Source of the DNA: Lingula anatina
Lineage: Eukaryota; Animalia; Brachiopoda
Reading direction: 5' to 3'
Length of the DNA stretch: 64,000 nucleotides
Assembly: GCA_051362555.1 (NCBI GenBank)
Contig: CM120640.1
Coordinates: 1,302,001 to 1,366,000 of the forward strand
The notes under the pieces were generated by a model, which saw only the letters and a program-made list of their open reading frames with translations, was not told the DNA's origin and did no database searches. The first letter of the stretch is position 1; every line of letters starts with the position of its first letter. This document shows positions 35,174 to 59,600 of this stretch, in pieces. The position numbers were made by a program, and so were the translations under genes.

Positions 35174-35309
35174 ATGGATTGTATACGTGACCAGAGCAAC
35201 AGTTCTATACTACGATTGACAGTGACATTACTGTTATGTGTTGTTACTTTAGAAGCCAGAACGTACCACAATAGACACTGGGAGAATAAATTGATAAAGA
35301 AAGGCTACG
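35174..35309 (+). CDS. CAP gene exon 1: signal peptide
   Basis: MDCIRDQSNSSILRLTVTLLLCVVTLEA|RTY.. with a hydrophobic core. Donor ACG|GTAAGC, phase 1. Confidence 0.75.
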
Positions 35310-36002: not shown

Positions 36003-36057
<55 letters not shown>

Positions 36058-36981
36058 GATAATGGTTGTGATGATGCGGGACAATTAACTCAAAGCGGAC
36101 ACTTATTATCCCGGGTTGATTAACAGGGTTCAGTGGAAAAAAACACGGACAGTTTAATGATCCGGAATAATGACATCAATCGATACGACTTCTCCTTGTT
36201 ATGTCGGAACTAAGAAAATGACTTGTTTGTACTTAGGGAGCATAGGCTTTAAGCGTCTGTTCCCTCGCCTTGGAGTCGATGTTAAAGCAGATTGTTACAC
36301 CAATAAAAACGCATTTGCCTCGCGTGGCAGGGTAATGTTGGCACGCAGCAGAACAAATCAAAGCAGGCCTTGGAAGGCAATGTGGTTCTGATAAGGCAGG
36401 CCCTTTGTCTTCGAATCAAGATATTACGCCTAACACCTGAGAACGAAATGGTAATCATTAACTTCACTATTGTTCCCCCTGATGGACCCTGGATTGCCTC
36501 TCTGCGCCACTTTTGGTGGTTCTGGTTCGTTCCAGCTATCTGAGCTTTACCTCTGTTTGGGCCAAGTTGACGGAATGATGCCATTAGTCACTATTTCATT
36601 TTGAAAAGTCTCTTTTCGCTTCCCACAAACCACAGCTTGCTGGTTGAGTCAATTGCTCGGTATTTGTCAACCGCTGATATGATATGATAACACGCAGAGT
36701 AAATGGAGACATTTTACCACAAGATTGATTCGTTTCGTTAATGGCGTAACGCGTGGATGGATGGCATTAGATTTATGAGCTGGTTGTTTGTTACTTCAGA
36801 AAATATAAGTGACATAAGTCATTAAGATTGACTGTTTTCTTAGGGATTTATAGAATCTTACAAAAAGCAGGCATTGTGGCATCTCACGAACTTAGACTTT
36901 TCACTTTCTTACAAAATATGAACATCTCGCCATCTGATAAAGAAGTAGGTGTTTTAATATATTAAGAGGGTAGTCATGTCG

Positions 36982-37026
<45 letters not shown>

Positions 37027-40000: not shown

Positions 40001-43000
40001 ACGCCATTAAGGGCAGAGTTGCTGCATGTGATGCCATCTGCATGCGAGTTAAGAGTTTGGTAAAGAGCCAATTTGACATGGCGCTCGCATCATCAGGTGT
40101 CTCTTGCAGAATATTGCCTTTAACGCAGTTAAGTGGTCAGTGGCATCTTGGATTGGTGCGTCATGTGAGACACAGATTCCCAGGCACTGTGCGTGAATCC
40201 AATGAATCGGCACGTGAATCACCGATACATTCACGTAGCAAAACCGAGCTCTCCCACCCATGCTGGGCCAGTTCTCACACTAACACAGTCCTGGGAAGAA
40301 ATTACTGAAACAATGGTTTCATTTCCCAAACAATAGGGCGTGTAAGTAGTGTTGCCCTCCAATAAAAAAGATCAGCTGGGAATGCCCAGGGCTTTGGTCT
40401 ACCGCTGTGTACTGAACGTGGTGCATTCGGACCAATCATCAAACACAAAACATAACAACTGGAAAATATTAACCGAGTCCTAGTTCTCACGTTTTTTACT
40501 CATATTTAATGAATGTGTTTTTCAGAGGATATTCGGTGTGTATCAAAACACTTCCTGTTTGTAGCGGAACATTTCCTTTGCATGCACAGGCTAAAGGTTG
40601 ATTATTTGCACGATAGAACCAGTAGAGAATCGCGATAAAAATACGTCCATAACATTTTTACCCTAAGATCGGGCTACTTATCTCGAATGAGAGATAAGCC
40701 GATAAAAATGGGGTTTTAACTTTCCAGGTTTACATCTTAGCCGTCTTAAGTAAGCACTGTTTTTGTATTTGATTCTTTGGAACAATCTAGCCCCAGGGCA
40801 AGCACCGATGTGGCGCACTTTAAAACAAAAGCCAAAGGTCTCACTTATAAAAAGAAATCTAAACAAAGCCTGCGATTAAGTTCAAGGGTGCAAGCCAAAA
40901 CCTAAACCGTAATGCACACATTCTTTGCTACAAAGCTCAGTAAGAAGTCTACAAAGTGAATCTACTTTAAACAAATAAAAACTGCACTTTTCATCGGCAG
41001 CTATCAGATAGTCTCTAGGACTGTGCATGTATGTTTCAGTAATTAAACAGTTAAAGAACTTTATTTTTGTTGAATGTCGTTACATTGTTAAGCAAACAAA
41101 GTCTGTTGTGATAAACCAAGGGAACCCCGAGATTTATCACGGAAAAATCCCCCCTAACACGTAACTCGATAGCTCGCCGTGCTTGGAACTAGCGCACACA
41201 CGGTAAACTTTTTTCTGGGCAATTTCATGGCTTTCAATTCCAAATTACCGCTTAGATGCCCTTTGTTAAATCAAGGTTTTATTGTGAAGAAGTGATTAAT
41301 ATACTCTAAGAGACGTGTTTGACACAATAGATCATAGACCAACCCGTCTGGGTTGGACCGTTTTTAAACCCCTAGTATGTGAGTAATGTCTTATTTCCAA
41401 TTTTTGACATTTCTCAAGAAGTTAATTATCCGCAACAGTACTTTTAATTGGCTCTATATTTCATCCGCCCTATTTTGGTATTGTTATTTTCCAGATTGTG
41501 TGTATTATATTTTGCCAACAATATCTTTAAGTTACCCAAGCTGACAGTAAACAATGGGCTTAATTAACTCGAGGTTGAAACTTTGTGATCACTTTTTTGG
41601 CAATATTTCCCTCCATTGTTGACACACGAGCAGCTCCACTTACGAAAAACCAGCCATGCTTGCATTAGCAGCAACAAAAATAAAATCCACAAAGCAGGAA
41701 GCATTCTGAATCACGTTTCAAAATATTCCTTTATCAAATGTCTAATTAATCATTCAGACATACACTTTATACATGTGCATGTATTGTTTATACTGTATAA
41801 ATATAAATGATAAAACGTCACTGAGATCAAAATGATATAATGTCACATCTTGTCATCTCTCTACACTTAAATAAACAAAACATTACAAACATTATACATT
41901 TATTATTGTTATCATTACTTGATATAATAAAAATAATTATAAGTATTATTTAATGTAATGCATTGTTTATAGTGTACATATATTATACAAAATATTGTTA
42001 ACAGTGTTCAGACTTAAGAACGGGTATCACTCTATCATTCATATTCACTTTCAGGGTTGTGAGAAGCGGTTCTCTGTTGTCAGTCCCAAACATACCATGT
42101 GCCTGAATGTGCACGTCAAAAGGAAAGATGGTACGTATTCTTTTTAGGTACACCTAACGTTTAGAAGCACTATGAGATTATTAGTTAATCCGTTTGTCTT
42201 TTGTAGATAAACAACACGAAAGTAACCTTTGTAGCAAATTCCTTAAATGTCCTCACGTTGCTGAGAGATAAGTTGTTTTGAGCGACACCAACGCAAAACG
42301 CCACGGGGCGCAAAGGATGGTTACACTGCTTTTTCAAAAAACATACGGGAAAGTTTTCTACTATGCATTTCTCGAATTTGGATCTCACTGGTATCGGAGA
42401 GAAAAAAAACTGTGGTTATTGGCATTTTTGCAGAACAAAAACTAAATTAAAGACACGTCTTCCCACCTATCTTTACCTTTACTACCTAAATATTTGTGGT
42501 TCTTCTGGCAACAGGTGGCAACTCTGAAAGCATTGTTGGGAAGTTAGTTTAGATTTCTGTTAAAGGTAGATTTTCTTCGTGAAGTACGCGTACAGTGAAT
42601 GAGTCATCATGTTAAAACACATATGGCTTTTTAGCGGCCCTAATTACGGCTGGTTTTGCACTGAATATCATGTTGGTGTCGAGCAGTAAACGTTGCTATT
42701 GGAATTGCTACTACCAGGCCGAGATAAAAACTGCACTGCCAATGGAACTTTATGTCAAATTGAGATAAATAAATTCTGTTAATAGATTCAATTAAGTCGA
42801 AGTACTATGATGAACAAAAATCATTTATTTACCGTTTCTCATACCCTGTAAGTGAATGGGACAGGAAATGTAATGGCATAAACTAAGTATATTACATGTA
42901 TTACATCCGTGTTTATTGACGTCAGATTTAATCTAGGAACAGGCCAAATTTCACTGGCATGTGCGTCAATCTTTTTTACGACTTTTACAAGGTGGACTTT

Positions 43001-46000
43001 TATGACCTTTGCTTTGTTTTGTGTGCATTGAGCAAAGATCAGACATCAATGCAATAAACTAACTTTAACAATAGCCAGTACAAATAATATGTCATGAATG
43101 CAGTTTCTGAATGGGAAATATTAATATGCTATTTTCTTCTTCAGGGATAACCGAAACGGAGAAAAATCTTATACTCGAAAGACACAATTATTATCGGGCC
43201 AATGTGGAAAAATTTAACAACCAGCCCCCAGCTACAGATATGAATAAGTTGGTAAGTCTCTCCACAATTCTCGGAAAGAACATGTATCACTTCATTCTTG
43301 GAACTGTAATTGTTCTGTGGTTAATGTTTATGGTAGTAATAGACTACCTAAGGGTAACATACCCCGTATCTTGCTTGTTGCCAAAATAGTTCCTTTGAAA
43401 GTGTGGACAAGATTTCACGTACTGTAAAACAAGGGAAGAAATGGCATGATATAGAATGGAAATTTAACGCAATTCTCTGAATTGGAGATATGATGTTACG
43501 AGTTACTGCCACAATTACAACAAAAGTGCTTACCACGAAGAATTTGTGGTTAGATATTTGTAACTAAGCACCCCTCTCCCTCTCGACCAGAGCAGATGCT
43601 TTTTCTTCTAAGTACTCAAATATCTCACTTTACGATCCGTTCTGCAAAAGTACGTGAGCACATACATTTAATAAGGCGATAGGCGTGATTGGAGGGAGCG
43701 TTTGGTGGGTTGAAAAAGAACCATTTTATTGTTCAAAAGACAGATCGAGCGTAAAAACGCTAATTGGACTGGAAAATAATCCGTGCACATCGTCTAGTGA
43801 CTCAGAACGGCAACCAAAATCAGGGCACCAGCCCTCATTTAATTAGGTTCAACCGTGCGCGTGTAAAGGCTAAACACGAGGTTCAGCGAAACACAGTGAT
43901 TTTAATTTCGAACGCTGTGAATCCGGGGTACCAATTCCGAACTCTTCATCAATATCACATTGCGCTATACATAACCGATAACTGTGTAAGTTACCGTTGC
44001 CTAATTATCATGCAGATTGAAACATTTACGCGGATTTGTAACATCTGTGAAAGCAACATATAATAGGATATCAACAGATGACGTATTTGGTGTAAATAAA
44101 CGTGGGTATTTTGCTAATAGAATCTTATCACGCGACATAAGAGTTAAATATACAAGCCCTGCACCTTTTAAACAAAATAAACATGGGCACACGTTCGTCA
44201 TTACAAGTGGCCAATCTTTGGGTTACTCTAAGCCGGGCACTGCTATGACTCAGAACCCACGTTAAACCGATAATGGCAACAGGTTCTCCTGCCAAAAATA
44301 CTTCAAAACTTTCAAGAAAATGAGGTGATTAAAAGCTTCATTTGTAAACATGCCGACCAACTCTGCACGTAGTGTTTGGTATTTAATTGGAACTGGTGGA
44401 CGTGCAGAGGGTGGTGCTGGGTTCTGGCTTGACCTTGGTCGTGTTTGATGGAGTGTCCAACAGGGTGATTGGCAGTACATGTAGCATTAAATATTCAATA
44501 ATGTACATCAGGATACACGGGCTTAACAATGGCAAAACCAAGGAATTCCGTATATGGCAGTTGAAAGTCGTGGCCATTGTGTTATTTTCGCTCTCAGCCA
44601 TTAAGAGGATGTGTTCATTGAGCCATTTCGTCACTTGTGCCATTTGGTGTTCCGTCTGTTTTCCCAATCACCTCGCACTAGCCTCCGGAAGCCAATAAAA
44701 ATTCACATGCTGACTAGTATAGAAAGACACTTCACTCATAAAGTAAATCGATATACCCCCTCCCTTCTTACCACAACTGGCGTTTCATGTTAGTGACCCT
44801 CACGTTTTTTCAACGAAATACAATATAAACTACACGTGCGCGCGTGTCTTCGCATGTCAAGGCAGCGCAAAACCTGGACTTCACGGACCGGAAGTAAGTC
44901 GCGCAGAAAATAACTGAAATACCTAAAATATCTTGGAGGTTTGGTTCTGTGTTTATATGCCCTCAGGGGAGGTAGATCTGGACCCATTTGTCATTTTGGT
45001 AATAGTGATCACGTCAGCCATTGAAGGAAAATAAAATTAAACAAAAAATACCGTGGTAATTGGTAGCGTTCATGGGTGTTAAATACGTGAAACTTAAATA
45101 AAATGACAGGGGGTGAATTATCGCCTTTCTGTCATTGAAGTCAAGCACTGCATTTAATCGTTCCTTGTTGCTCCATGTTAAACACCAAGTTGAATGCCCG
45201 TTTTATTCCATAATCTCGCAAGCCAAATGTCAATGAAGTCTAATGTCAAAGATCGTAGTGTCTGCACTAGATACCCCTGTGATCTCCTTTTAAACTACCT
45301 TTAGTGAGCGAAAAGTAGAAATAAATCTTTTTTCTTGACATATCTAGTTCATTATCTAATAGTAGTAATGATACCAACGTTATGTTACATGTAAGGGTCG
45401 ACCAACTTGACATATCTAGCTCATTATCTAATGATAGTAAGATACCAACATTATGTTACAGGTATGGGACGACCAACTTTCTGAACTTGCACAGAAGTGG
45501 GCCAGTAATTGTCATTATGATCACGAAGAAAGCGAGAATAGAAACATTCCAGGTACGTACATTTGAGGAAAATACATGTACAAAACAGCTGCTCTAAATT
45601 CTTGTGCCTGTACGATCACCCACGCTTTGTGCTTGGAATATTTAATACGCAGTCCAACTGGTACGAACGTTAAACATATGTATGCTGATAAAAGTTTTAT
45701 ATCCTGGCTATATTCAAGTGCGCAATGGGAATCCACCTTGTATTAATAACGCAGGGAATCAATAATAAAATGTGAACTGCCCACCTTTGGGAATGTCATA
45801 TTTCCTATGTCTAAATATCCTACAAACTTACTTATCTTTCTCAATTCAGACCTTAAAAACTCTTATATATATAAAAAATCAGTCAATTAATCAGTCAATT
45901 AGGGCTAAATTAGAAATGGTACAAAACATAGAATCAAATTCAAAGATGGGCCGAACAATGATTCCTGAGTTGGAGACAATTGGATTTTTTCGAGGAATAT

Positions 46001-48768
46001 TCGATTTGGCGGGAAAATCGCGGACAGGATTCCTTAAACCTGAACTAGAATGATTTAAAGTTTATAGTCGATATTCAGAATTGAGTTGTTTTCCACGCTG
46101 GGGGGCATGCACGGACCTCCAAGCATGTAATAAATCCCCGGTAGCTGAAAACTGTAAACATGAAACAGAACAGTGGGTAATTTACGATTATATCTTCCAA
46201 ATTTTGTTACGTCGGTGTCCATAACATTGAACAAACGCTGTAACTATTTATGTGTGTGTGTTTTTGAAGGCATGTCAACCCCCTAGCTGTGTTATCTGTA
46301 GGTTTTGTTAAGTCAGCGTTTGTTTCCTTAAGCAAAATTTACTCAAGTGACCGTATAGGTGCCAGTATTCTGAAGTAATTAACAATCAACAATCTTGTAA
46401 GGATTCATCTTTACAGATCGCTGAATAAGTTGGCGTTTTTGTTTAGTCTTGTCTGTTTCTGTCCCACGCGAATAATATTAGTGGCCGAAGGTGCGACAGG
46501 TCTATAGTAATCAGCTATATGTAATTTGGAAAATAATTCCAACTGCCACATTGCATTATCTAACAATTTTGTACGCCAGTCGTCCTGTTTTATCACTAAA
46601 GCATTTAACAGTGGCCGTAAGTGGTTGTAGTTATATTACAGCACGGAACAAAGTTTTTCACCCCTGCGTTGTTTTCCCAGGCATTTGTGATAAATCGGAT
46701 TTTATTAACAAAAACATTGGAGTTATCGAAATGACCAAACGCTAGGCTGGAGGTGTCCGTATCTTTTTGTGTGATTCTGAAAATAGACTGTTCTTTGGAA
46801 TGCGAACGGGATTGCAACCCCCACATTGTATTATATATCCTTTTGTCAGAACCACCTCGTTTTGTTTTCCGAGCAGATTTCTAATCAAACCAGCCGTATC
46901 AGCTCCAGCGAGATGAGCCAATTTGTTGGGCTTCTGTTTAGGCTTCATTTGTGAGATAAAAGGGCGAAGTCATAATTGACATTCTCTCGGCTAACATGTT
47001 TTAAATGACGGGGGGGATCTTTGATGTCCCGCGCTGTATATAATTAGTTTTGTCAATTTAAACAGAGCCTCACCAAAACACCGGAAAACGATGCCAAAAC
47101 TTACAGGTAAGTTGAAGGTTTGGGAGTGGAAACATTGGCACTAAAGGGTTTTCAGTGCTTTTTGAGGGTATCCAGGTCAACGGATATGGAACATGCCTCT
47201 TAAAGGAATTCTGTATCAACAAGTACATATCTTCAATATATAATGCATTAGATAATAAAAATTTGATAATTCATTGCAGGCTGGGCCAGCGTGGGTCAGA
47301 ATTTAGGGCGTGGCCAGAGAAACTGGCATCAGGTGATGAAGATGTGGCACGACGAGGTGAACTATTTCAAGTACGGACGCGGGTCGATTAATGGTTACGA
47401 GACAGGCCATTACACACAGGTAATATCAACAAGATGGTGTGATACATACATTAGTCTGGGTCTGCGGCGTGGTCTGATTGCTTTAAGAGTTCACAATATT
47501 CTAAGCAGTGAAATGCGATTTTTAGAGTCTAAAGGGATTATATACAATATGTGGGTATTTTAGGTCTATATAGGTTATCTTCTTTTTCTTGGTTTTTGTG
47601 GCAGATGACAGCTATTGCTCCGTTGGCAGTGAAAAATCTGGCACACTATTGTCAAAAGCAGCTAACATTTATGTGATGCGAAGGCAACTCGTGTTTAAGA
47701 TATCCGGTTTTCACTGAATTGTACGCTCAGGCGCTCCCAAGATGTACGAAGCCACTCGAAAAATCACCAACAACACCCAAGTGAAACAAAACCAAGCCTG
47801 TGACATAAATAAAGATATGATTTCGCCTATTTGTTAGAATTGACCGTACTATTTGTGGTCAAGCTTTATGTGCGATATATTACAAGGTCGATTTCTGACA
47901 TTATTTCAGATGGTGTGGGCAGCGTCCACGAGAATAGGGTGTGGGTTTGCCCAGTGCAATGGCACCAAGACATTTTATGTTTGCAACTATGCACCATCGT
48001 AAGTATACTTTTATGTTTTAGAAAGAGCAAAAAGGGAGAAAGAACAAATGAGGGTGAATTTTGTGTTTTTTGAAATATAAAACGCGATGATTTATGTTTC
48101 GTTTTAAAAAATCATATACAACTGGTACCATTGTAAAAGCAATAGCGCCTACAGCAGAAAAAATACACAAAATGAGATAATTTTATATGTAGAATGTCAC
48201 CTTATACCCATTATTTTATATCATTCAGCGGTAACCTCAGGCACAAGGTGAAGACCCCATACAAAGCAGGACCAACTGGATCTTCCTGCAAGAAGAACTT
48301 CGATTCAAGATCTGGTTTATGCGGTTAGTATTTGCCATTTCGATATCGGTGTGTGAGCGGAAGAGAGCGCAAGCGCGCGCGGGTTTACGTGTTTTAACAT
48401 ATTTGTACTTCTCTAGACGTGCTCATTAGCATGGACAGTAACATAATTTTGTTATTAAACATGACGCACTTAGATTAGATATCTCTCTCAATATTTATAA
48501 CAAACAATACCAAATGCCATGTTTTTCTCAGCCTAATATGTGACCACACCACTGTGTTTCAGACTGCGGTGGCAAGGTTTGTAAGAACGGGGGAGAGTTG
48601 GACGTGAGCACGTGCCAGTGCAAGTGCAAAGATACATGGTGGATTGAGAAGGGAGGCGAATGCGACCGTGAGTGCTTAATTTCATCGATTGATTCATTCA
48701 TTCTGACACTTTTTTGTGGCTTATTTGATCTAATTGCTCTTTCAAAGAAATATTTACATGGCGGTGGT

Positions 48769-48808
<40 letters not shown>

Positions 48809-51800
48809 AAAAGATTGATTAAATAGTGGTTCAGATTGATTAAATAGTGGCGCTGTGCGCACGTCTCCAAGACAGGCTCAACCCAACGTCAGGACACCTC
48901 GTCCGGTCCCCATACCCTTTTCAGTGTGCCGTAAAAAGATGAGGCATTCGTCTTGATAAAAATAAATAAATAAGCACAATAAAGCACATATTATACCATG
49001 TCATACATAGGATGCAGAGCTCGGCGTGTCAGTTCAGATTGTTACAAACCTGCCGCACATAGGAAAGGTAAAGTGCTCAATAGCTCTAAATCTGCACGGT
49101 CACTTAGACCGTGACAGTTGAAGTTTTCCACACCAATTGTCATTATCAAGGTTATTTGTTTGTATCACATTCCACGACGCCGCACATGTAATCAGATTAT
49201 GAACATATGAACAAAGGCCAAACCAAGTCCACAACGTTCCATAGCGCACATGTTTATGTAAACTTACTAGTCCATGGTTCGTCTTTGAACGGCACATTTT
49301 CTAAACAAACAATTCCTCACAACAAAACAATAACTCACACTTAATGCTAACAGTCATTTCTTTTGCTAGTAAACTCCGTTTCTGTTATAAGAATTCATTG
49401 TTATCTCAACAAAAGTTTCAATGGTTTTTATTCGAGTTCAATTTCGCATTGACAGAGGTTGCTAGCAGGCCAACGCTGTGTTTGCTAGTAGAGATACAAA
49501 TCAACAGTACTTGATCTTTATTATCCTCAACGTGCCACGGCCGTTTTACAAAATTCCTTTTTAAAAAAGCTCCCATTTTTGAAATCAAACAATTATATTT
49601 GTGTTTTGCTGAATATGGTTGCGCGCCGTCTGAAACGCTCCTCCCATCTCCTTATACTGTGCTGCCCCTTTATAAACGGTCCTTTGTCCAGGTATCAATA
49701 GAAACAATAATATATAGAGAAGGTCCTAATAGTTAGGTACACGGGGTATAACTTCGAGGGTCTCTATGACCACAAGTCTTATGTAGTGTACCGTGTCGTT
49801 CGGGGCCAGTCTGTCACCAATGGGACTCGCTTCAGGAGGTGGTTTACGGGGACCTTGGACGCGCAGGGACAGCAGATTGTCGTTAACAGTGGACACTAAG
49901 ACTCCCTGCTCATACAGAGTTTTGATAAATCCAGAAGGCGGCAGCACAAAAGTGAGATGAATGTTTGATGAGCTTTCTCTAGACTAGTGGTCAAGTGAAG
50001 TTTTCTATGAACTGACGTAACATGACGGCATTGTTTACTCAAGATCAACTAGCCGAAGAGGAGTTAATTTTCCATCTTTTTCGAGGTTATTGAAGGAGAA
50101 AATAGTCCCATGTATACGAGATATCGACGCAGATCGTATTAAACAAAGGTGTGTTGAGACTCCATGGAGAAGGCATGATTAGTTGAATGGAAAGCAAACT
50201 TGGCTGAGCTCTGAACTTTACAACATATGCATCCGTGTTCAATGCAAAGAGAGACTAACTGGAAACGGTAAATACCAACATTTTACATCGTCAAATCAGG
50301 CGATAATGACACGCTATGAATAACTGAAGATGGGCATTTAAATCATTGGAGCGGTCAGTGAGAAATACTGCGTTTATGTAGATTCAAGCCATCATGCCGG
50401 CCGGGATAGAAGGCACTGACCGTTTGGTCGACGCTGAAAAGCGCAACAAATTCGAGAGGGCTCGACTGGACCTCCGCTCAAAACTTTTAGAGAAAGAACG
50501 AACAGCTGTCGTGAAAGATGTTAATATGTGGATGAGGCGAGTTCGAGTTGAGTATCTGGCGGTCCCCCGCCACACAGGGCAGAGTTCTGAAGGCATCCCA
50601 ACAGAACACAGCAGCGACAGACAAATCCGACAGTCGGAATATTTCCGCTTTGGCCCCAGAATGAGCAACAAACGGTTATCGAAATGGCGTAGAGATGAGG
50701 AAAAGCTGCAGACGTTCTTGCGTGCGTCAGAGCGAATAGTGCAGGAAAATGAGCAGATAAAACACAAAGAGATCACCGTGGACAGTATCCTGGAAGATAT
50801 CGAGAAAAAATCCATTCAAAGGGTGGAACAGGCCCAAGCGATGTCAGAGTCGGATGAAAATCGACCTATATTATCTCGCGTACGCGATAGACTTGACGTA
50901 TTCGATGGTCTGAAGGACGATAACAAGGCATCTACCGCCAAAGGCAATGAGCCAAATGACTTCTCTTTGCCAGAATGGGAAAATGATGTTCTCAAAAATT
51001 ATAAGACATTTGTTACCCGAAAAATAAAACTATCAAAGAAAAGGTTCCAGCAAAGATCTCTTAGTGCGTCGCAACTTTTGAGTATGAGTCCAAAAAGTGG
51101 TCAAAACGGCCCTTTGCACAAGTCGTCTTCTGTAACTGATGTGTACAATTTACGAACTGCATCGGTGAAGTCAAATAATGGTGCAACGAAAGCCCCTCCT
51201 CCCACTGCTAGTCGGAAGCCTATATTACGGGCCTCTAAATCCTCTCCAGCATTATTACCGTCCCCCAGACACCAACACAGCGCCCCCTCATCCCCAAGAC
51301 AAGCTATGGTCACTCGGGGAGCGACAGGGGGATCTGATGAAGACCCTATGATCGTGATGGGTGATAGAAGAGACGATACCACAAGTTACGTTACAGAATC
51401 TGATCAAGACGCTGCAGTTATGGGGCCTTCCTCGTATGTACCGGCTTCTACTAGTCAAAAACCTCCAACCCCACCCACTAGAGGTAGAGCCCCCAAACCC
51501 AGGCCGGTTACAGCAAACATTGCAAGGCAACAGGCAGCAAAATCTTCATCTCAGGACACCGATGTTCGACCAAAAAGTGCCGCGCAGTTGACGCGGAAAG
51601 TAACTTTTTCGTGTGATACAAATTTCTCAGACACTGACGCAGACGATCTGTCAGATCTTGAATCTGCGACAGTACCCGCAGCGCGTGAAATGACGACTGT
51701 TCATGAAGAAGACGAAGAGAAAGAAGAGGCGTATAAACAAGGAGTAAAAATTGACAATTATGTGGAAAAATGGAAAGATGCGACGACAACAAAGAAACTC

Positions 51801-54800
51801 GTAAAAGTGAAAACAAAAGTGCCCAGTGTCCCCGCCCCAGTTTCGGGACCTGAAGATGAACACCAGAACGAAGCAGTCGAAGCTTTAGTAGATAGAAAAC
51901 GTTTTTTCAAACGCAGTAGCTCTTCGGTCATTTTAGTCTCCTCTGGCCGAAATGTTCGAGTAGGAAGTTACACGAAAGAATCGACCATTGAGAAGCAAAC
52001 CTCAACGGACCCCAACGCCCAATCCCGCGGAGCGAAAGAAAAAATCGCACAAAACGCTACGAAGGAGTTCGCAAGAGCAAAATGGAACATGCTTCGTAAA
52101 AATGTTAAAAATGTCGACGTCGATGCTATTCTAAAGCAAAACACGACCGACGGTCGTAAGAACGGCCCGCAAACTGACCACGAAGCAGACGACAACAACA
52201 ACAGCCCACATCGTGCCTCACAATGGCGGCGTAACTTGCAGGCAGAGGCCCCCACCATGGGTGGCGGACACGATATCCGAAAGGAAATTAGAAAAGCAAC
52301 AGTCATGTCGAAATCCCAGAGGGCTAAAATGATGCAGGACATGATCAACCAGAACCTCATGAGTAAAGTGAAATCATTTGTATCGGAGGAGGAGAAAAAT
52401 AAATTACAGGACCGAGTGAATCGTTTTAATATGATGATGGGGCTCGCCACAACCGAAGATGGCGAGGAAAAGAAAAACAGCAACACAGACAACAATGAAG
52501 ATGAGACATGATTTATCCTTTAAAGTGGCGCCATAAAAATATAGATTAATTAATTTGCGCTGGTAACCGTCCAATATATCCCCCTCACACCGGTTGAAGG
52601 CTGTAGTACCTGTACCCGCTGTTACACTACGAAGTCTAAGGATGCCATTATTTGCAATATTAAAGATTAATTCATCTTTTGAGGTTAGCAGAATTGCTCG
52701 TCAAGTAACATTCTAAGACCACAAAGAAGCCCGTCTTGAAATTCTCTAGGGTCTAATCACTCACTGCTAAATGTAAAACTGTAATTAGTAACTGTGATAA
52801 AAACCTTCAATTTGTTCAAATTGGCAAAAAACTAACATTTTGCTGATGGTATTCATCCCGAGGGACCTCAACTAACCACTTCAAACGTCTTTAAGGTGAC
52901 GTATCCTCAGAATTACTTGTTGAAAACCGTCGTAAAATTCCGTTGAAAGAGCAATTCGATACAACACACAGCTTTTGTTCCTTTTCAAATATTAAATATT
53001 TTCATAGTGATACAATATAACGCTTATCTTATTTATACTGTAGTTATTTCTTTGTTTGTGTGTTTGTTGTTTTGGAAATGGACTAACAATATCCCGTTTG
53101 TTCTGTTTTCTAGTTGACTGCTCGATAGCTTTTGACTTGAATATCTGCGCCAGTAGCGGTGGAAAATGGGGGAAACGCGAGTGCCAGAAGTTTGCGGACG
53201 TCCCTTACAGTTTTTGCCCCATCACGTGCAAGCTTTGTCCAAGTAAGTATTATCCATGGTCGCTCAGTTGTAAATGAAATATTGGAAACTTGGCAAAATA
53301 AATGATCTCATAGAAAAACGATAGCCTAGGTTGGTTTTATGTGATCAGCAGAGCGAGAGCACCAAAGCGCATTATGTAAAACAAGTGTGCTTTTTAGACA
53401 GAAGATATGTGTAATCATTTCAATTATGGGTGGCTACGAGGCAAAACAAAAGATCCACAATGCCTTCAGGGAACAGGCTCTGTGGTTGATAGCACATCGT
53501 GTACAGGAAAAAAAATCTTGAATAACCTTTACATTTATCAGAATTCTTGGGGATAACAAATTATTTTAAGACCAGGCTCTCTCAGCAATGTCTGATCATC
53601 ATTTTAGGTAGACGATCAATAAGATTAAAAGACAAAAGAATATACAGCAAGTAATATATGGTTCAAAATTATTTAACCTACTACTGCTCTTAAACATTAC
53701 CATCTTGACATATTGACTTTAAAAAATGGGAAGATGAAAAGACAGACGATGTTTTATTCTTTGAACAAAGGTTGTGAAGAAGAAAACGCTGCACGAAGTG
53801 GCATCTGCCCCCTCCCCATCCCACCCCCACCCCTCCCCCAATCTCCCATCCCCAAGCCTTTTTTCAGCCAACACCAATTTAACGCAGTGAAAATGAAGCT
53901 TACCTCACTACATTTCTTTACCATTACAGTGTATGGCGACGTGTACTACGGTGACCCTGACGCTACCAACAAAGTAACCGACTACGATTACAGTAATTAC
54001 GATAATTATGACTACAATTACGAAGAGGAGCAGGAGGTCACGAACAGTGCAGAGACCAAGAGAAAAGACGACTATTTTGACAACGAGCTGCCTTTTGATT
54101 ACGATGATTCGTCAGACAACGATTATAAATTATTAGGCCAGGATCATTTTGAACCACAGGAGACTACTACTACTACGACGACGACAACAACTCGCCCTAC
54201 TTCCACAACTACTACGCCGACGACAACAACAACAACAACACCAACGACAACGACAACAACACCAACTACAACTACAACAACACCCAGAACAACAACAACC
54301 ACGACGCGGAAAACCACCACCACAACTGTAGCGCCGAAACTGCCACCTTCAAAAGAGAGGATACTACAGTTTTCTAGGCCAGGTGATTACATATATGGTT
54401 TTGTTTTAAACGGTTAATTTCTTTCTGTTTATTAGTTATGTGATTATTAATTAATTAATTCAAGTGTCACATGGAATACGGTTGCATATTAAAGTAAAAA
54501 TTCAATATTCAGAATGATAAAGTTTTCCATTTCGTCGAATTATATTGTTATTATATGAAAGTCCCCACTTACTCTTCTGTGCATAAGCATAATATATATA
54601 TATATATTTTTCAAATTTCAATTTTAATTCTGGTTTTCATTTCTAGATCTCCCTAGCTGCCTGATAGTGGATCCAGCTATGTGTGGCCAGCCCGGGTATA
54701 GCTTCTGGCCCAAAGACTACTGTGTCTATCCATCCATCAGGTCAACGTGTCCAGCTATGTGCAAAACCTGCGCAGGTAATTACGACGATCACGTCATTAC

Positions 54801-56260
54801 GTCATCTCACTCTGACTACGTCATTTTGTCATCTTATTACGTCATCTCATTACGTCATATCATTTCAATGTCTTAACATCATGACACATGCAGAGCTTTG
54901 TTCTAAAATGGTTGCCGCTTGGTAATAAAGGGAGTTATAGTGAAGTTCAGGAAACACTACCGGAAATAAACTTTTTTATGAAACGTTTACCTAAAGAAAA
55001 ATGAAAAAGAAAACGGCATGGTATAATTGTATGCCCGCTTTAATGGTTTCAATACGGGTGGAGAAGTACGGCCAGCATCACATATATTTTACAATTGAGA
55101 TTTAAAACGAGATTCTCCCAGTAATGATGCTTACACAGTAGTTAAAGTACAAGGTGATAACGACCACTAAAGGATGCCCCTTAATCGAACCGAAAGGAAT
55201 ATAGCTTATAAATCTTCTACGCGTTCACATAAAACTTCTCTTCTTTTGACCGCAGCATACATGTGGGACATTTGATTACTTTCATGAATGAGGCGATCAC
55301 GTTGAATACGAGTTTCCCATCAGAAAATGACACTCGGGGAGTTAGCAACAACATTTCCTCGAAAATGAGTTGTCCTCTTAATCGATTTTCTTTACAAAGT
55401 CATTACCCTTGTAGGAATCCAAATCGTCTAGAGCAGTGATTGCGTTTTTATCTTCTCCGCCCTCGCGTCTGGAGTTCCAAGAAGTCGATTACTTTCCTAT
55501 CGTCCTGTTGCTTGTATTAATCTCAATTAACTGATATATATGAATAGATATATGACTGATGACTTTCCTGTAACGCTTACATATGTGTAAGGATGATCTG
55601 TTTGCTTTGTTGGTAGAATATATGTACTAATATATGTACTAAATATGATTTATTGCAAACACCGTGCTGTAAAAATATCACAAGACTGATAGTCATAACA
55701 TATATTTTGATACAAATCATTCGTTGCATAAAGTCATAACAGCTGACAATATCAAATAATAATGCATGTTTAGTTTACAATGATATTTTGATGGCCGTCA
55801 TTGGTTTATGATGATCAGTGATGAACTGTTAATTAAGTCCTGTATTGTCTGAACTTTTGTAGCCCGCCAGTGCCAGGATTACCACGGTAAACGCTACCAG
55901 GTGGGCGAGTCGTGGGCCAATGTCCATGGGCAGTTCACATGTACATACACCGGCGTCACCGTAGAAAAAGGTAAATAGACACAGACTATCGATTCGATAA
56001 AAAATATTTATTTTATAGTATGGAGGTAAATAAAAAATAAAAACACGGCGATTACCTTAGAAATGTGAATGAAATTAATGAAGACGCTTAGTTGATTTAA
56101 AATTCATTCAGTTCTTTTATTGTTTTTTCTTACTTCAATTCTAGGCTGTTACAACAGAGAAAAACAGCGGTTTATTCCTAAAGGCGGCCAGTACCAAGAC
56201 GACGATGAACTGTGCACGTGTAGCTGGCACTCCTATCTCAGATGTAAGACCATCACTTAA
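35174..56260 (+). CDS. Secreted CAP/SCP (CRISP-like, Tex31/Mr30-type) multidomain protein, 14 coding exons, 610 aa
   Basis: Exons 35174-35309, 39363-39421, 42055-42130, 43145-43251, 45462-45552, 47280-47419, 47910-47998, 48229-48323, 48563-48667, 53114-53242, 53930-54382, 54647-54775, 55863-55970, 56145-56260. All introns are GT-AG with compatible phases; total 1833 nt ending in TAA. All four CAP motifs are present: HNYYR, GQNL, GHYTQMVWAAS, FYVCNYAPSGNL. Confidence 0.9.
36008..36050. repeat. (GA)n microsatellite in CAP intron 1
   Basis: Direct reading. Confidence 0.92.
36984..37024. repeat. Poly(A) tract, ~41 nt
   Basis: Direct reading. Confidence 0.92.
39363..39421 (+). CDS. CAP gene exon 2 (GTDNWVTKNHIGKLPYGKTK)
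   Basis: Long polypyrimidine tract plus TAG|, and AAG|GTAAGA. Converts phase 1 to phase 0, exactly as needed to join exons 1 and 3. Confidence 0.75.
42055..42130 (+). CDS. CAP gene exon 3 (GCEKRFSVVSPKHTMCLNVHVKRKD)
   Basis: C..HTMC motif typical of invertebrate CAP/antigen-5 N-termini. TTTCAG| and G|GTACGT. Confidence 0.85.
43145..43251 (+). CDS. CAP gene exon 4 (HNYYR..PPATDMNKL)
   Basis: HNxxR motif and canonical splice sites. Confidence 0.93.
45334..45479. repeat. Two-copy ~72-bp tandem duplication spanning the exon 5 acceptor
   Basis: CTTGACATATCTAG.TCATTATCTAAT..GATACCAAC.TTATGTTACA.GTA.GG..CGACCAA occurs twice. Confidence 0.9.
45462..45552 (+). CDS. CAP gene exon 5 (VWDDQLSELAQKWASNCHYDH..)
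   Basis: WDxxLxxxAQxWAxxC..H CAP signature. Confidence 0.93.
47280..47419 (+). CDS. CAP gene exon 6 (GQNL..WHDE..GHYTQ)
   Basis: CAP4 and CAP1 motifs. Confidence 0.95.
47910..47998 (+). CDS. CAP gene exon 7 (MVWAASTRIGCGFAQC..YVCNYAP)
   Basis: CAP1/CAP2 motifs. Confidence 0.95.
48229..48323 (+). CDS. CAP gene exon 8 (GNL..PYKAG..C..GLC hinge)
   Basis: CRISP hinge-like PYxxG..GLC. Confidence 0.92.
48563..48667 (+). CDS. CAP gene exon 9, EGF-like (DCGGKVCKNGGELDVSTCQCKC..GECD)
   Basis: CxNGG..CxC pattern, phase 1-1. Confidence 0.92.
48772..48807. repeat. (CAA)n microsatellite
   Basis: Direct reading. Confidence 0.9.
50394..52511 (+). CDS. Uncharacterised 705-aa protein: charged helical N- and C-termini with a long S/P/R/D/E-rich, probably disordered middle; nested in CAP intron 9
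   Basis: 2118-nt uninterrupted ORF in AT-rich DNA, with raised GC and Kozak-like GCCATCATG. In-frame stop just upstream (50379-50381). No RT, transposase or gag motifs recognised. Confidence 0.88.
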   Translation: MPAGIEGTDRLVDAEKRNKFERARLDLRSKLLEKERTAVVKDVNMWMRRVRVEYLAVPRHTGQSSEGIPTEHSSDRQIRQSEYFRFGPRMSNKRLSKWRRDEEKLQTFLRASERIVQENEQIKHKEITVDSILEDIEKKSIQRVEQAQAMSESDENRPILSRVRDRLDVFDGLKDDNKASTAKGNEPNDFSLPEWENDVLKNYKTFVTRKIKLSKKRFQQRSLSASQLLSMSPKSGQNGPLHKSSSVTDVYNLRTASVKSNNGATKAPPPTASRKPILRASKSSPALLPSPRHQHSAPSSPRQAMVTRGATGGSDEDPMIVMGDRRDDTTSYVTESDQDAAVMGPSSYVPASTSQKPPTPPTRGRAPKPRPVTANIARQQAAKSSSQDTDVRPKSAAQLTRKVTFSCDTNFSDTDADDLSDLESATVPAAREMTTVHEEDEEKEEAYKQGVKIDNYVEKWKDATTTKKLVKVKTKVPSVPAPVSGPEDEHQNEAVEALVDRKRFFKRSSSSVILVSSGRNVRVGSYTKESTIEKQTSTDPNAQSRGAKEKIAQNATKEFARAKWNMLRKNVKNVDVDAILKQNTTDGRKNGPQTDHEADDNNNSPHRASQWRRNLQAEAPTMGGGHDIRKEIRKATVMSKSQRAKMMQDMINQNLMSKVKSFVSEEEKNKLQDRVNRFNMMMGLATTEDGEEKKNSNTDNNEDET
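53114..53242 (+). CDS. CAP gene exon 10, ShKT domain 1
   Basis: DC...D..IC......W....C.........FCPITCKLCP (six Cys ending CPxTCxxC), phase 1-1. Confidence 0.92.
53930..54382 (+). CDS. CAP gene exon 11: Asp/Tyr-rich acidic segment plus Thr-rich mucin-like stalk
   Basis: Lies within ORF 53713-54417. Acceptor CATTACAG|, donor CAG|GTGATT, phase 1-1. Thr codons are mixed (ACT/ACG/ACA/ACC). Confidence 0.88.
54647..54775 (+). CDS. CAP gene exon 12, ShKT domain 2
   Basis: SC...DPAMC........WPKDYC.......TCPAMCKTCA, phase 1-1. Confidence 0.92.
55863..55970 (+). CDS. CAP gene exon 13, VWC/FnI-like start (CQDYHGKRYQVGESW)
   Basis: C...GxxYxxGExW motif and canonical splice sites. Confidence 0.85.
56145..56260 (+). 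CDS. CAP gene terminal exon (GCYNREKQRFIPKGGQYQDDDELCTCSWHSYLRCKTIT*)
   Basis: Strong acceptor, in phase, ends in TAA. Confidence 0.85.
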
Positions 56261-56600
56261 TCCCCAGCACGTGCCCCGTGCCTAGTCACCAGTTGTGTTC
56301 TCTGAATGTCACGCATGTCGGAGACTTTAACAAATACGCGTTCAAGAGGCGTATGGTTTACAACAACAGCAAAAAAAAAAAGCTTCACGAACTGAAAACA
56401 AGACATAAGTTGAAAGCTGCAAACGTACACGTAAGATTTGGCACTTGACAATGAGGTCCGTAAAGGACCGGGTTTTCGACATGAAGTGGGCATTCGTCTA
56501 GAAATGTGTGCAGTAAATTAAGACTGATGCCTCCTTATAAGTTAACAAACAGAAGACAACGCTGGTCACCCTAAATCACGTTCAGCGACGCCCGCGCAGA

Positions 56601-56606
56601 AATAAA
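56601..56606 (+). terminator. Candidate poly(A) signal of the CAP gene
   Basis: AATAAA about 340 nt after the stop codon. Confidence 0.4.
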
Positions 56607-59600
56607 ATGGAAAATTGAAAATACGGCACATACGAAGTGCGCCATTGGAAAATAGTGTTTATTTATAATGATCTAGTCAGAATTTCGAGAACAAACTAGT
56701 AGAGAGGTCTCGTCCTGGTCACAGTAAACTACAGGGCATTTAGTTGAACTTGATTTGGGGCAGCGGCGCGTTTACTAGCGTCCACGTTTTAAGTGCAATC
56801 ATTCTGTTGTGATACTCAGCGCAGTCTTCATTTTAATGAACAGAGAATCTCACTTCTTAATTCACGGAGGAATACGAGATTTCTCAGACTGATGAATATC
56901 CAGAGTTCCAATGAAGGCTCGTGCGTGGAATAGACATCAGCATTAAGTTCATACCTCTAGCTGATGTATTGTGCCTGTGCCTAATACATCTCTCAATTCA
57001 TCAAAGGATAAATCCGTTCCGCGCTAGCGTGTCCTTCCTCAGTGACATTACGTGTGCTAAATACTGCTTAACGTAAGGAAACTTACTAGAAATAATCAGA
57101 AATGATATCTCTTGTGGATTCCGACTTGACTGATTGGATTCTTAACAAATAACTAATTCTCGACCAAATTTACATTAGTGTCTCTGCGATATATCGCCGG
57201 CGGATTACTATACTCTGTTATGTTTCAGAAGCTTGTTAACTTTTTCAGAATGTTTTTAAAATCTCCCCATGGGTCTAATCTAAATGTAATGAAATAGTCT
57301 CAATCCCCCTAAGGTGTAAATAATTTGCAAATACACGTACCTTACGAACTTTAAATGTGTACATATTAATTAAGTTATAATGAGACAGAGACGTGAACAT
57401 TGTGTTGTTACTGTGTATTCGTCAGTATGATCAATTATTGGCTGATCGAAACTGTGCACAGTTCACTTCTGGCAGACAAAGTGAATATGACGTTTCTGAG
57501 CTCTGCCGAGATTATATTCTTTTGAAAAGATTTTGTAGATAATAAAGAGGCAGACAACAAATTAGACTTCATAAATCAGCTCTAATAGAAAGGAAAGACA
57601 GACAATTGGGTCATAGTCAATTCAGATCAGAACAGTCTAGTGAACATGAAGGTTTCCTCTCTACTTGGGTTTCATCTTTCCTGAATTGTTTTCCTCATAG
57701 CATCGCTAGACACTGCTCTTGCTCAGAGCCCCCAAAATAACTTCCTAATCATTCTTCCAATAGAAGATTATTTGTTTTAAGTTATACTTTGTGTACATAT
57801 TTTTTTCCGTTTTATTTCTATATTGTGAATATTAGGGTGTACATATTAGATTAGGAGCTGTATTTTTGCCTTTCGTATTGTACGACGTGCAATTTGTTGT
57901 TTACTTTGTGGATATATATAACATTGTATTTTTATTTATTACATTCTGATTGGTTGTATCTGTTTGAAGTCAAATAGGTCCACAATTAAGTGTTTATCAT
58001 TACCAGGGATTGGACCCCACCATACCTGTACAGGTGAATGTTGTTGTCGGAGTATTAACTGTTTTAATGAAAATCTTACTCAAAATCGTAATTGTTGTTC
58101 CGACGTTCTTCGGCATAGAATTAGAAATAAAAGTTTTGGAAATTATACCCATGCTTGTTTGTATTTTTTACCTCTTTCAAACAAATCTGTATGAGAATGC
58201 ATGCGCCCCAAGTACAGGAAGACATAATGGTCTTAATGCTTACCCAGATTAATTGAATTAATTAATTGAATTGATTAGAAATGACATTAAGTGTCAAATC
58301 CAAGTGCTGGGACAACAAGCATTGATTACAGGGATGCTTGTTTTTCTCTCAAGAAATAAAATCTAGATATTGTGTTGAAAAGCGTCTATTCTCTGACTGA
58401 GGACAAGTTCAAGTAAGAGCTGCTGTAAACGCTACTATACTGAAATCGACAATTGTTAAGGAGTTTGCAGTCAGTAGTTTTATGATTTCTGTGATAACTT
58501 ACTAAAAAACCTCCCGCAACTCACAATCACAATCTGCAATGTGTTAGTTGCGACTGACCGATGAGATTTCATGAAAACCCATCAACGTATAATGGAATGG
58601 CCGGTGTTACAAATACATGTTACAGACATGCTACACAAACTCCTGGACAAAGGGCGCAGCAATCATATCATCGTTGACCCATACACAACAACTTTGTGTC
58701 CACTTTCCACTTGCTGTAAGGCGGTTGCTATGGTTACTCTCTCTTTGGTTACTCTCTCTTTGGTTCATTAAGTCGAGGAGGAAGGGGTGCAGTAACACTA
58801 TATATCGCAACTACCACATTTGTACTATATATGTACATTATTATATAGTTAACTAACTTCCGATATTTTGTTTGACGCTGACGAATATAAGACGATGGAG
58901 GGCACGATCCTTTTGTAGATTCAAAAAGATTCAAAAACACGCTTTTAGGAGCGCAGTTTGGTAAATTAAACGTGTTTCAGTTTGCCATCTGCCCTCCCAT
59001 TCTATTTTGTGGTCCACCAAGAAATATCACCATGTATATACTACCTCATTCTGGATCTACATGTATCTCTTTGATTCAGAATAAGAAGAAAAGCCACACC
59101 CCCCTCCTTCTTACACAGATTAACACTCTGACTCCACAACTGTTGGTTTATCTATAGATTAAAGCACAAGGCAGAACTAGAAAAGTTTCCTGATACTGTT
59201 ACCCACCGTAATTTTAAGAAATTACTGGAAAAACAACCTCTATTACTATTGAAAATGCCTCAGTCAGCGGTGGAAATATAGGGGCCTAATAGAATCTAGT
59301 CAGTCGAGGGCACTCAGAATTATGTTTCCTGATTTATCTTATGCTGATGCCCTGTTAAAAACAAACCGTGTCACTTTAGAAAAGCGGTGTATAGAACTAT
59401 GCAAATCTTTCTTTGAGAAAATTAAGAACGAAAAGGACAAATTAAATTTCCTCTTAACCTCCAGATTATATAGGACGCTAAGACGTCACCAATAAAGCTT
59501 CAATCTAAAAATCCAACATCGAACCTTTTCATACTTTTTTTTAAATCTAACGACATGTTTGACTTTTATTTCGAACTCAGTTTGATATTAGTGTGAATCC

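What the first reader, a model, noticed from the sequence alone, without database searches (positions are those of the whole stretch)
48668..53113. Same-strand nested gene: a 705-aa intronless ORF inside intron 9 of the CAP gene
Seen: exon 9 (EGF, ends phase 1 at 48667) and exon 10 (ShKT, starts phase 1 at 53114) join cleanly, yet the intron between them holds a complete 2.1-kb plus-strand ORF for an unrelated, apparently cytosolic protein. Known: nested genes are more often antisense, and same-strand nesting forces host transcripts to ignore the inner gene's splice and poly(A) signals. Inference: the two genes may be expressed in mutually exclusive tissues (secretory versus ciliated/germ cells), or be linked by an RNA-processing switch. 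The intronless ORF may be a retrogene.
Basis: partly seen in the sequence, partly recalled or inferred. Interest (0 to 1): 0.8.

Follow-up and report, generated by a model that had tools for sequence, protein, structure and literature searches.

The report
Coiled-coil gene nested in CAP intron
An intron of a gene for a likely secreted CAP-family protein holds, on the same strand, a complete 705-codon gene of an unnamed family also found in molluscs, an annelid and a lamp shell; RNA reads show the outer gene splicing over it in all eight samples tested and the inner gene clearly transcribed in one, likely from its own promoter, so this is an ordinary case of a known kind of gene nesting.

Summary
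The nesting is real. The joint 48667→53114 (GT..AG) is read in 8 of 8 RNA runs laid, 63 reads in all. The 14 host coding exons give one open 610-codon frame. The inner ORF (50394-52511, 705 aa) is a genuine gene: it has 27 relatives at 25-33% identity, with conserved N- and C-terminal helical blocks. All 8 named clusters are lophotrochozoan and uncharacterised. In one stranded run (X6) about 39 sense reads cover most of it; the other seven runs give 0-4 each. Host splicing is not lower in X6, so no switch or mutual exclusion is seen in bulk RNA. A recent retrocopy is not supported: 2 of 2 relatives on DNA contigs are also single unbroken ORFs, and there is no poly(A) remnant or target-site repeat. 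Best reading: an old, single-coding-exon gene with its own intronic promoter and restricted (possibly germ-line or ciliary) expression, which the host skips by ordinary splicing. In Drosophila about 29% of nested genes are same-strand and 73% of those are single-exon. Still open: the 5' end, the tissue, conservation of the nesting, and DNA-read proof of the assembly. Interest low.

The parts
35174..56260 (+). Host gene coding span, 14 coding exons, 610 aa: hydrophobic leader, CAP domain, EGF-like exon, ShKT-like exon, acidic/Thr-rich stalk, second ShKT-like exon, two small Cys-rich (Fn1/vWC-like) exons
   Evidence: Open frame across the 14 exons. 12 of 13 introns read as RNA joints; the exon 11-12 join is seen only as a loose end. 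Pfam CAP above cut-off on exons 5 and 7; ShK and Fn1 below cut-off.
21900..22033 (+). Extra upstream non-coding exon of the host (5' start not mapped; 21900 is a placeholder), donor after 22033, joined to an acceptor at 35066
   Evidence: Loose end of 5 reads in X8 before 35064 matches 22010-22029 exactly and uniquely; donor GTACGT and acceptor ...TTACAG. Seen in 1 of 4 runs laid over 35066.
48563..48667 (+). Host exon 9 (EGF-like by cysteine spacing), phase 1 to phase 1
   Evidence: no Pfam EGF hit.
48668..53113 (+). Host intron 9, 4446 nt, GT..AG, holds the inner gene
   Evidence: 63 joint reads in 8 of 8 runs; no Rfam match at E<=0.1.
49671..49676 (+). TATAAA, candidate promoter element of the inner gene (inferred)
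   Evidence: Sequence; X6 depth is 0 over 48828-49709 and starts in the bin 49710-50150.
49710..50150 (+). Bin with sense-strand reads in X6 (about 5 reads): likely 5' UTR or 5' non-coding exon of the inner gene
   Evidence: Depth 1.72, same mate orientation as host mRNA. Link to the ORF not shown by a joint.
50366..50381 (+). Weak candidate 3' splice site 12 nt before the ATG (predicted only)
   Evidence: Score 1.7, rank 16 of 95 upstream AG sites; true host acceptors score 2.0-10.0 leave-one-out. L002 has its best acceptor of 58 at 15 nt before the ATG; L001 a middling one (11 of 66) at 18 nt.
50394..52511 (+). Inner ORF, 705 aa, basic (pI 9.5), mostly disordered, unnamed lophotrochozoan family
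   Evidence: sense reads over 50592-52796 in X6.
50415..50768 (+). Conserved N-terminal block (about aa 8-125): long helix, TG.S..G.P....D loop, second helix with invariant W98/E102
   Evidence: Alignments A1 and A2; AlphaFold helices 8-56 and 92-129 at mean pLDDT 82.
52227..52457 (+). Conserved C-terminal block (about aa 612-688): W+R.L..EA-P ... MSKS.R and a long helix
   Evidence: pLDDT 71-91 over residues 631-690.
52659..52664 (+). ATTAAA, candidate poly(A) signal of the inner gene (inferred); no AATAAA lies between the stop and exon 10
   Evidence: X6 depth fades in bin 52356-52796, and the next bin is accounted for by exon 10.
53114..53242 (+). Host exon 10 (ShKT-like, six Cys), phase 1 to phase 1
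   Evidence: Pfam ShK E 0.094, under cut-off.
56261..58150 (+). Host 3' UTR, ending near AATAAA at 58126; it reads through AATAAA at 56601 and 57541
   Evidence: Depth in X5, X6, X9 runs to about 58100 and then drops; positions.

Best explanation
The host CAP gene removes intron 9 whole, and inside that intron lies a separate same-strand gene whose entire coding sequence is one exon, likely transcribed from its own promoter near 49700 and likely ending at a weak poly(A) signal near 52660 in a restricted set of cells. Shown: host splicing over the ORF, sense transcription of most of the ORF in one sample, conservation of the protein, and the same unbroken coding exon in two relatives. Inferred: the promoter, a possible 5' UTR intron, the poly(A) site, and that the host tolerates the passenger by ordinary means (normal exon 9 donor and strong exon 10 acceptor, no internal exons to compete, U1-type suppression of intronic poly(A) signals as in any intron). 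The protein is predicted to be a cytosolic, largely disordered scaffold with helical/coiled-coil ends that bind partners; a role in sperm or cilia is my guess (about 50%), resting on restricted expression, the testis bias of such genes in Drosophila and a faint CCDC190-like signal. The gene probably entered the intron long ago by duplication or relocation of an already single-coding-exon family member.
For: Joint 48667→53114 in 8 of 8 runs, 63 reads. X6 is stranded; its inner reads have the host's orientation, about 39 reads against 0-4 in each of the other 7 runs (estimated from depth). Inner pairs to host joints are 19:12 in X6 against 4:51 in the rest (Fisher p 1e-7) and 1:13 in X4+X5 of the same study (p 0.0009), so inner expression varies independently of the host. 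X6 has no reads over 48828-49709, unlikely under uniform intron retention (p about 0.005). 27 relatives at E<=0.001 align from residue 3-11 in 26 of 27, many begin MP like the ORF, and they share a C-terminal block before their own stops. L001 and L002 carry relatives as single ORFs of 563 and 575 aa, 61% identical to each other, with pN 0.27 against a saturated pS 0.79. Literature passages: in Drosophila 71.27% of nested genes are opposite-strand; 72.53% of same-strand ones are single-exon and 58.46% peak in testis (PMC3814207).
Against: No run is shown to cover the ATG. X6 has an empty bin at 50151-50591 between its 5' reads and the ORF body; this is unlikely under an unspliced transcript (p 0.003) and still unlikely with a 5' UTR intron ending at 50381 (p 0.017), both under a crude uniform model. 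No joint into or out of the inner gene is listed, but at depth 2-3 it would often miss the 3-read threshold. Clear expression rests on one run, of which 6 in 100 reads were read. No strict RFX X-box lies near the inner gene (only 38357 and 58724-37). No Pfam, PDB-sequence or specific fold match. No DNA run or genome was available, so the assembly of the intron interior is not independently shown.
Confidence: 0.78

Rival explanations
1. The ORF is an alternative terminal exon of the host locus: a host 5' exon (the non-coding exon ending at 22033, or exon 9) is spliced to 50382 or to an acceptor inside the ORF, so one promoter would serve two unrelated proteins, or make a CAP-EGF fusion.
For: A candidate acceptor lies 12 nt before the ATG, and both relatives have an AG site 15-18 nt before theirs. 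The host has a distal non-coding exon. Three of the four best acceptors inside the ORF (50491, 51643, 50974) are in phase with the exon 9 donor. No read is shown over 50151-50591.
Against: No such joint is listed in 8 runs. X6 has sense reads at 49710-50150 just behind a TATAAA, with none in the kilobase before. Exon 9 joined to 50382 would be out of frame; joined to 50491 it would cut the conserved first helix. Relatives are stand-alone proteins starting at their own Met. The 22033 exon was seen in X8, which had no inner reads.
Confidence: 0.1
2. The inner gene is a retrocopy (retrogene) of an intron-containing parent, inserted into intron 9.
For: Coding-intronless. In Drosophila 42.11% of young same-strand nested duplicates arose through RNA (PMC3814207 passage; P 0.054 against opposite-strand). 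If this genome is Lingula, as other notes of the scan say, XP_013403309 (31% identical) would be a paralogue and possible parent.
Against: 2 of 2 relatives read on DNA contigs are also unbroken ORFs, so lack of coding introns is the family state and carries no information on mechanism. Longest A run after the stop is 6 nt; no flanking repeat of 10 nt or more. The long branch (2.0 changes per column) makes any insertion old, so scars would be gone either way.
Confidence: 0.12
3. Host and inner gene are coupled by a regulatory switch: inner transcription or its poly(A) signal truncates the host, giving mutually exclusive products.
For: Nested genes can cause intron retention, exonisation and cryptic polyadenylation in human minigenes (PMC3192792, abstract). 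OMP/CAPN5, a same-strand single-exon pair, is reciprocal in olfactory neurons (PMC6549253 passages). Bulk RNA cannot exclude exclusion cell by cell.
Against: In X6 the host joints run 3, 11, 9, 4, 12, 7, 5, 5 from intron 5 onward (intron 11 not listed): no fall at or after intron 9, and no retention of its first kilobase. No sign that the ORF is tuned to avoid splice or poly(A) signals.
Confidence: 0.08
4. Artefact or mobile element: the ORF was placed in the intron by misassembly, or belongs to a transposon.
For: No DNA run or genome was on hand to confirm the intron interior or copy number. An (AAC)n microsatellite lies at about 48770-48810.
Against: No N in the window. No long terminal or inverted repeats flank the ORF among those listed. 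No transposase or reverse-transcriptase domain. Relatives are ordinary single ORFs annotated as uncharacterised host genes. RNA of the same species label covers both genes.
Confidence: 0.04

Closest known systems
[quoted passage not shown]
   Same: Inner gene wholly inside one intron, same strand, single coding exon, narrow expression, uncorrelated with the host. About 29% of nested genes there are same-strand, and 72.53% of those single-exon.
   Different: Different phylum; the inner CDS (2118 nt) is longer than their median (817.5 nt); testis bias is not shown here.
OMP inside CAPN5 intron 2 (PMC6549253; passages read)
   Same: Single-exon gene on the same strand as an unrelated host; expressed independently.
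   Different: That nesting is reported as conserved from Fugu to human, and its expression is reciprocal in one cell type; neither is shown here.
Mammalian host/nested pairs (PMC11694760; passages read)
   Same: Nested genes sit in long introns and are more tissue-specific than their hosts; same and opposite orientation are broadly similar in number; anticorrelated expression is rare.
   Different: That catalogue includes many non-coding RNAs; here both partners are protein-coding.
Uncharacterised lophotrochozoan proteins XP_013403309 (Lingula), XP_052244186 (Dreissena), XP_033739445 (Pecten), CAH1798585 (Owenia) and others
   Same: Same N-terminal and C-terminal blocks, the DVF and FS...WE motifs and a disordered middle; RPx[ST]A motifs in 21 of 27 and twice in the ORF.
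   Different: Only 25-33% identical; no near-identical protein was returned, so this gene seems to be missing from the public protein sets searched. Whether relatives are nested is unknown: no CAP, EGF or ShK exon was found in the short flanks of L001 and L002.
CCDC190 (Pfam PF15768 CC190)
   Same: Resemblance of the first helix was recalled from memory before testing; CC190 was then the best-E family among 16 N-terminal pieces (1 of 16, E 0.0039).
   Different: The window protein itself has no CC190 hit, whole or in pieces, nor have the 27 full-length members. A lead only.

Membership tests
Same-strand nested protein-coding gene | Host exons on both sides are spliced together across the inner gene | tested here: met
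   63 joint reads, 8 of 8 runs; frame open over 14 exons
Same-strand nested protein-coding gene | Inner gene encodes a real protein unrelated to the host | tested here: met
   27 relatives, conserved ends; purifying selection between two relatives; no CAP, EGF or ShK content
Same-strand nested protein-coding gene | Inner gene is transcribed on the host's strand | tested here: met
   Stranded run X6, about 39 reads in the host's orientation; one pair in stranded X4
Same-strand nested protein-coding gene | Inner transcript has its own start and end and shares no exon with the host | tested here: inconclusive
   Reads begin behind TATAAA 49671 and fade near ATTAAA 52659; no joint listed, but depth is low and 50151-50591 is empty
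Same-strand nested protein-coding gene | Genomic arrangement confirmed by independent DNA reads | not testable with these tools
   No genome held; no DNA run listed
Retrogene | Has lost coding introns that the family or parent keeps | tested here: not met
   2 of 2 relatives on DNA contigs are unbroken ORFs; only two, both of the bivalve-type clade
Retrogene | Poly(A) remnant and target-site duplication | tested here: not met
   Longest A run 6 nt; no flanking repeat of 10 nt or more; such scars decay in old copies
Retrogene | An intron-containing parent elsewhere in the same genome | not testable with these tools
   No genome
Transposable element ORF | Transposase, integrase or reverse-transcriptase domain; terminal repeats | tested here: not met
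   Pfam none; PDB sequences none; no flanking repeats listed
Transposable element ORF | Many copies in the genome | not testable with these tools
   No genome
CCDC190 (PF15768) | Match to the CC190 profile | tested here: not met
   No hit for the window protein; 1 of 16 relatives' N-termini at E 0.0039
CAP superfamily (host) | CAP domain (PF00188) above cut-off | tested here: met
   Exon 7: 25.6 bits, exon 5: 21.8 bits, cut-off 21.1; exons 4 and 6 alone gave no hit
CAP superfamily (host) | N-terminal secretion signal | tested here: inconclusive
   Hydrophobic stretch in exon 1, hydropathy 2.39 over 15 residues; no signal-peptide predictor available
ShKT / EGF-like modules (host exons 10 and 9) | Profile match above cut-off | tested here: inconclusive
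   ShK E 0.094, 13.7 bits against 20.9; no EGF hit; cysteine spacing fits by eye

The most novel reading that the evidence does not exclude
The locus is one transcription unit with two unrelated products: the host's distal non-coding exon (ending 22033) is spliced either to the CAP exons or, 28 kb further on and over nine coding exons, to the acceptor just before the inner ATG, switching between a secreted CAP-EGF-ShKT protein and a cytosolic coiled-coil protein of an undescribed lophotrochozoan family, perhaps in sperm.
Probability: 0.06. Interest if true: 0.55.

Novelty: new member of a known kind. Interest (0 to 1): 0.2.

Why it matters
As an arrangement it is ordinary: same-strand, single-exon nested genes are a described class, and this one fits its rules. 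Two modest points remain. First, the inner gene has no near-identical protein in the collections searched (best 31%), so it is probably a gene that annotation missed because of where it sits. Second, it marks a conserved protein family of molluscs, annelids and brachiopods with no Pfam model, no solved relative and no paper found in two accession searches; with sample-restricted expression, it is a candidate germ-line or ciliary protein. It would matter more only if the inner gene proved to borrow the host's distal exon, or if the nesting proved conserved across phyla.

Tried and rejected
No whole genome is held, so copy number, parent gene and synteny could not be searched. No indexed RNA or DNA holder was listed; the nine runs came by species label. 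Word-index protein searches with the ORF and with alignment A1 gave nothing; with the N-terminal alignment A2 they returned only 3 proteins already found, so the range outside Lophotrochozoa is untested rather than excluded. Pfam: nothing above cut-off for the ORF, whole or in 7 pieces, or for 27 members. PDB sequences: 0 for A1, 2 chance rows for A2. Foldseek: none at E<=0.001. VIA-align: best Z 5.9, generic long helices; a few ciliary chains appear among tied rows and carry no weight. The N-terminal model was not fold-searched. Atlas, through the Lingula relative P0001: best feature score 0.77, best TM 0.26, no lead. Rfam over intron 9: none. Selection against cryptic splice or poly(A) signals in the ORF: not seen against 300 synonymous shuffles, with a weak matrix from 14 sites. 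RFX X-box near the inner gene: none; FoxJ1-like heptamers at 49251 and 50032 are at background rate (86 hits in the window). Conserved nesting in L001 and L002: no host-exon match by tblastn, Cys patterns or Pfam on 51 flank frames; the flanks are only 1.4-4 kb, so this is no evidence of absence. The tree (26 of 28 candidate rows: P0011 dropped as a fragment, P0018 not in A1) puts the ORF with the Lingula, Owenia and unnamed rows apart from the named molluscs (100/99), but on a long branch with no supported sister. My first exon boundaries were off by one and were corrected from the RNA joints. Kumar 2009 (PMC2747821) is not held and was not read. No supplements were read.


Full report
Observation. 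The sequence shows exon 9 at 48563-48667 and exon 10 at 53114-53242, both phase 1 to phase 1, with a 4446-nt GT..AG intron between them. In it lies one + strand ORF, ATG 50394 to TGA 52511, 705 codons, preceded by an in-frame stop. In 300 shuffles each of the intron and the ORF DNA the longest stop-free frames were 201 and 249 codons. The window has no N. No whole genome is held.

The host. Nine RNA runs were listed by species label; I laid eight. The joint 48667→53114 was read in all eight: 2, 7, 14, 3 (X1, X4, X7, X8) and 1, 6, 12, 18 (X2, X5, X6, X9), 63 reads from three studies. Joints fix 12 of the 13 coding-region introns; the exon 11-12 join appears only as a loose end. The 14 exons give one open frame of 610 codons. 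Pfam CAP passes its cut-off on exons 5 and 7; ShK on exon 10 and Fn1 on exon 13 are below cut-off, and exon 9 has no EGF hit, so those labels rest on cysteine spacing. The 3' UTR runs to about 58100, next to AATAAA at 58126, passing two earlier AATAAA. Five X8 reads join an extra exon ending at 22033 to an acceptor at 35066, so the host likely has two promoters.

The inner protein. The full HMMER search found 27 proteins at E<=0.001, 25-33% identical; word-index searches had missed them. Of the 27 clusters, 8 carry names: Lingula, Dreissena, Sinanodonta, Pecten, Littorina, Haliotis, Mytilus and Owenia, all 'uncharacterized', 'hypothetical' or 'unnamed'. The alignment shows a conserved N-terminal block, two short motifs (DVF, FS...WE), a divergent low-complexity middle and a conserved C-terminal block just before the stop. 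AlphaFold predicts long helices at both ends and disorder between (424 of 705 residues under pLDDT 50, pTM 0.26; N-terminal part alone mean pLDDT 82). There is no signal peptide or membrane segment, and the pI is 9.5. No Pfam family, PDB sequence or specific fold matches. I had recalled a likeness to CCDC190; Pfam CC190 hit 1 of 16 N-terminal pieces at E 0.0039 and not the window protein, so it is a lead only. Ten accession numbers or locus names of relatives gave no paper in two searches. Earlier notes of this scan call the genome Lingula; I could test that only so far as the best hit is a Lingula protein. At 31% identity that protein would be a paralogue, and the inner gene itself was not returned by any protein search.

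Expression of the inner gene. In X6, a stranded library, reads in the host's orientation cover 49710-50150 and 50592-52796 at depth 0.6-3.6, about 39 reads; the bins over 48828-49709 and 50151-50591 are empty. The other seven runs give about 0, 2, 4, 0, 0, 0 and 2 reads (X1, X4, X7, X8, X2, X5, X9), no more than stray reads seen in other host introns. Relative to host joints the excess in X6 is significant (Fisher p 1e-7 against all others, 0.0009 against X4+X5 of the same study; counts estimated from depth). Uniform retention of intron 9 would rarely leave its first kilobase empty (p about 0.005). A TATAAA at 49671 lies just before the first reads, and an ATTAAA at 52659 near the last; no AATAAA lies between the stop and exon 10. 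The empty bin over the ATG is unexplained: p 0.003 for an unspliced RNA and 0.017 with a 5' UTR intron ending at 50381, under a crude uniform model. No joint into or out of the inner gene is listed, but at this depth one could fall under the 3-read threshold.

Is there a switch? In X6 the host joint over intron 9 is read 12 times, against 7 and 6 in X4 and X5 at similar depth, and joint counts along the host do not fall after exon 9. The ORF is not depleted of cryptic acceptors, donors or AATAAA relative to 300 synonymous shuffles, and the 9 host introns long enough to score carry AATAAA at 0.9-2.8 per kb, intron 9 the fewest (weak matrix from 14 sites). So nothing special seems to be asked of the host. 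Suppression of intronic poly(A) signals by U1 snRNP is established (PMC10404622, PMC13322065; search listing and start of abstract only); that it acts here is inference. Cell-level exclusion cannot be excluded by bulk RNA.

Is it a retrogene? A metagenome scan with four bivalve-type relatives matched 430 stretches, of which 2 were confirmed. Both contigs carry the relative as one unbroken ORF (563 and 575 aa, each beginning MPA like the window ORF), 61% identical to each other, with pN 0.27 and saturated pS 0.79. Each has an AG site 15-18 nt before the ATG: the best of 58 upstream sites in L002, 11th of 66 in L001; the window's is weak, 16th of 95. A single coding exon, perhaps behind a 5' UTR intron, therefore looks like the family state, and gives no evidence of retroposition. 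There is no poly(A) remnant or flanking repeat of 10 nt or more. The flanks of L001 and L002 (1.4-4 kb) show no host-type exon, which is too little DNA to judge conservation of the nesting. The tree places the ORF on a long branch among the non-mollusc-named rows, nearest to the Lingula protein by path but without a supported sister.

Mechanism. Shown: the host removes intron 9 whole; the inner ORF is a conserved protein-coding gene; it is transcribed on the same strand, strongly in 1 of 8 samples. Inferred: its own promoter near 49700 and poly(A) site near 52660; tolerance by the host because the passenger offers no internal exons; an old duplication or relocation as the origin. Guessed (about 50%): a cytosolic scaffold or cytoskeleton-binding role in sperm or cilia. 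No strict X-box supports this.

Comparison. In Drosophila 71.27% of nested genes are opposite-strand; same-strand ones are 72.53% single-exon, more tissue-specific, and 58.46% peak in testis (PMC3814207, passages). In mouse and human the two orientations are broadly similar in number and anticorrelated pairs are rare (PMC11694760, passages). OMP in CAPN5 is a same-strand single-exon example (PMC6549253, passages). Interference by nested genes is described (PMC3192792, abstract). The scan's own notes list several similar cases in other invertebrates; these are unchecked and lend no support. Verdict: a real, new member of a known kind; interest 0.2.

Noticed in passing
window 22010-22033 joined to 35066: Distal non-coding first exon of the CAP gene, 13 kb upstream, seen in 5 reads of X8 only; a TATA-like element near 35022 suggests a second, proximal promoter.
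   Followed up: partly
window 6627-6971, minus strand: Exon with a strong Pfam CIMIP3 (ciliary microtubule inner protein 3) match, E 6.7e-18; further exons probably lie near 8075-8460.
   Followed up: partly
window 60861-60951, plus strand; 60310 and 58724-58737: First exon of an Arf/Arl-like small GTPase (Pfam Arf E 0.051, under cut-off), with an X-box-like half site at 60310 and a full X-box at 58724-58737 upstream.
   Followed up: partly
window 45598-45639: A 42-nt piece of host intron 5 is covered by up to 24 antisense-oriented reads in X6 (also X8, X9) that run on into sequence not in the stretch laid: probably a short repeat shared with another transcript.
   Followed up: no
window 53930-54382: Host exon 11 encodes an Asp/Tyr-rich stretch followed by a Thr-rich mucin-like stalk with codon-length indel variants in RNA reads; the DY-rich part could be a tyrosine-sulfation region (recalled, untested).
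   Followed up: no
window 1-420: Tandem array of a 35-nt unit, about 12 copies at 91-93% identity.
   Followed up: no
window 45334-45440: Two copies of a 35-nt stretch 72 nt apart, just upstream of host exon 5; may be a small splice-site-adjacent duplication like those noted elsewhere in this genome.
   Followed up: no
runs X7-X9 against the window: Reads of study P3 are mostly 95-99% alike with many fixed differences, while those of P1 and P2 are mostly 99% or more alike: a highly polymorphic species or a divergent population under the same label.
   Followed up: no
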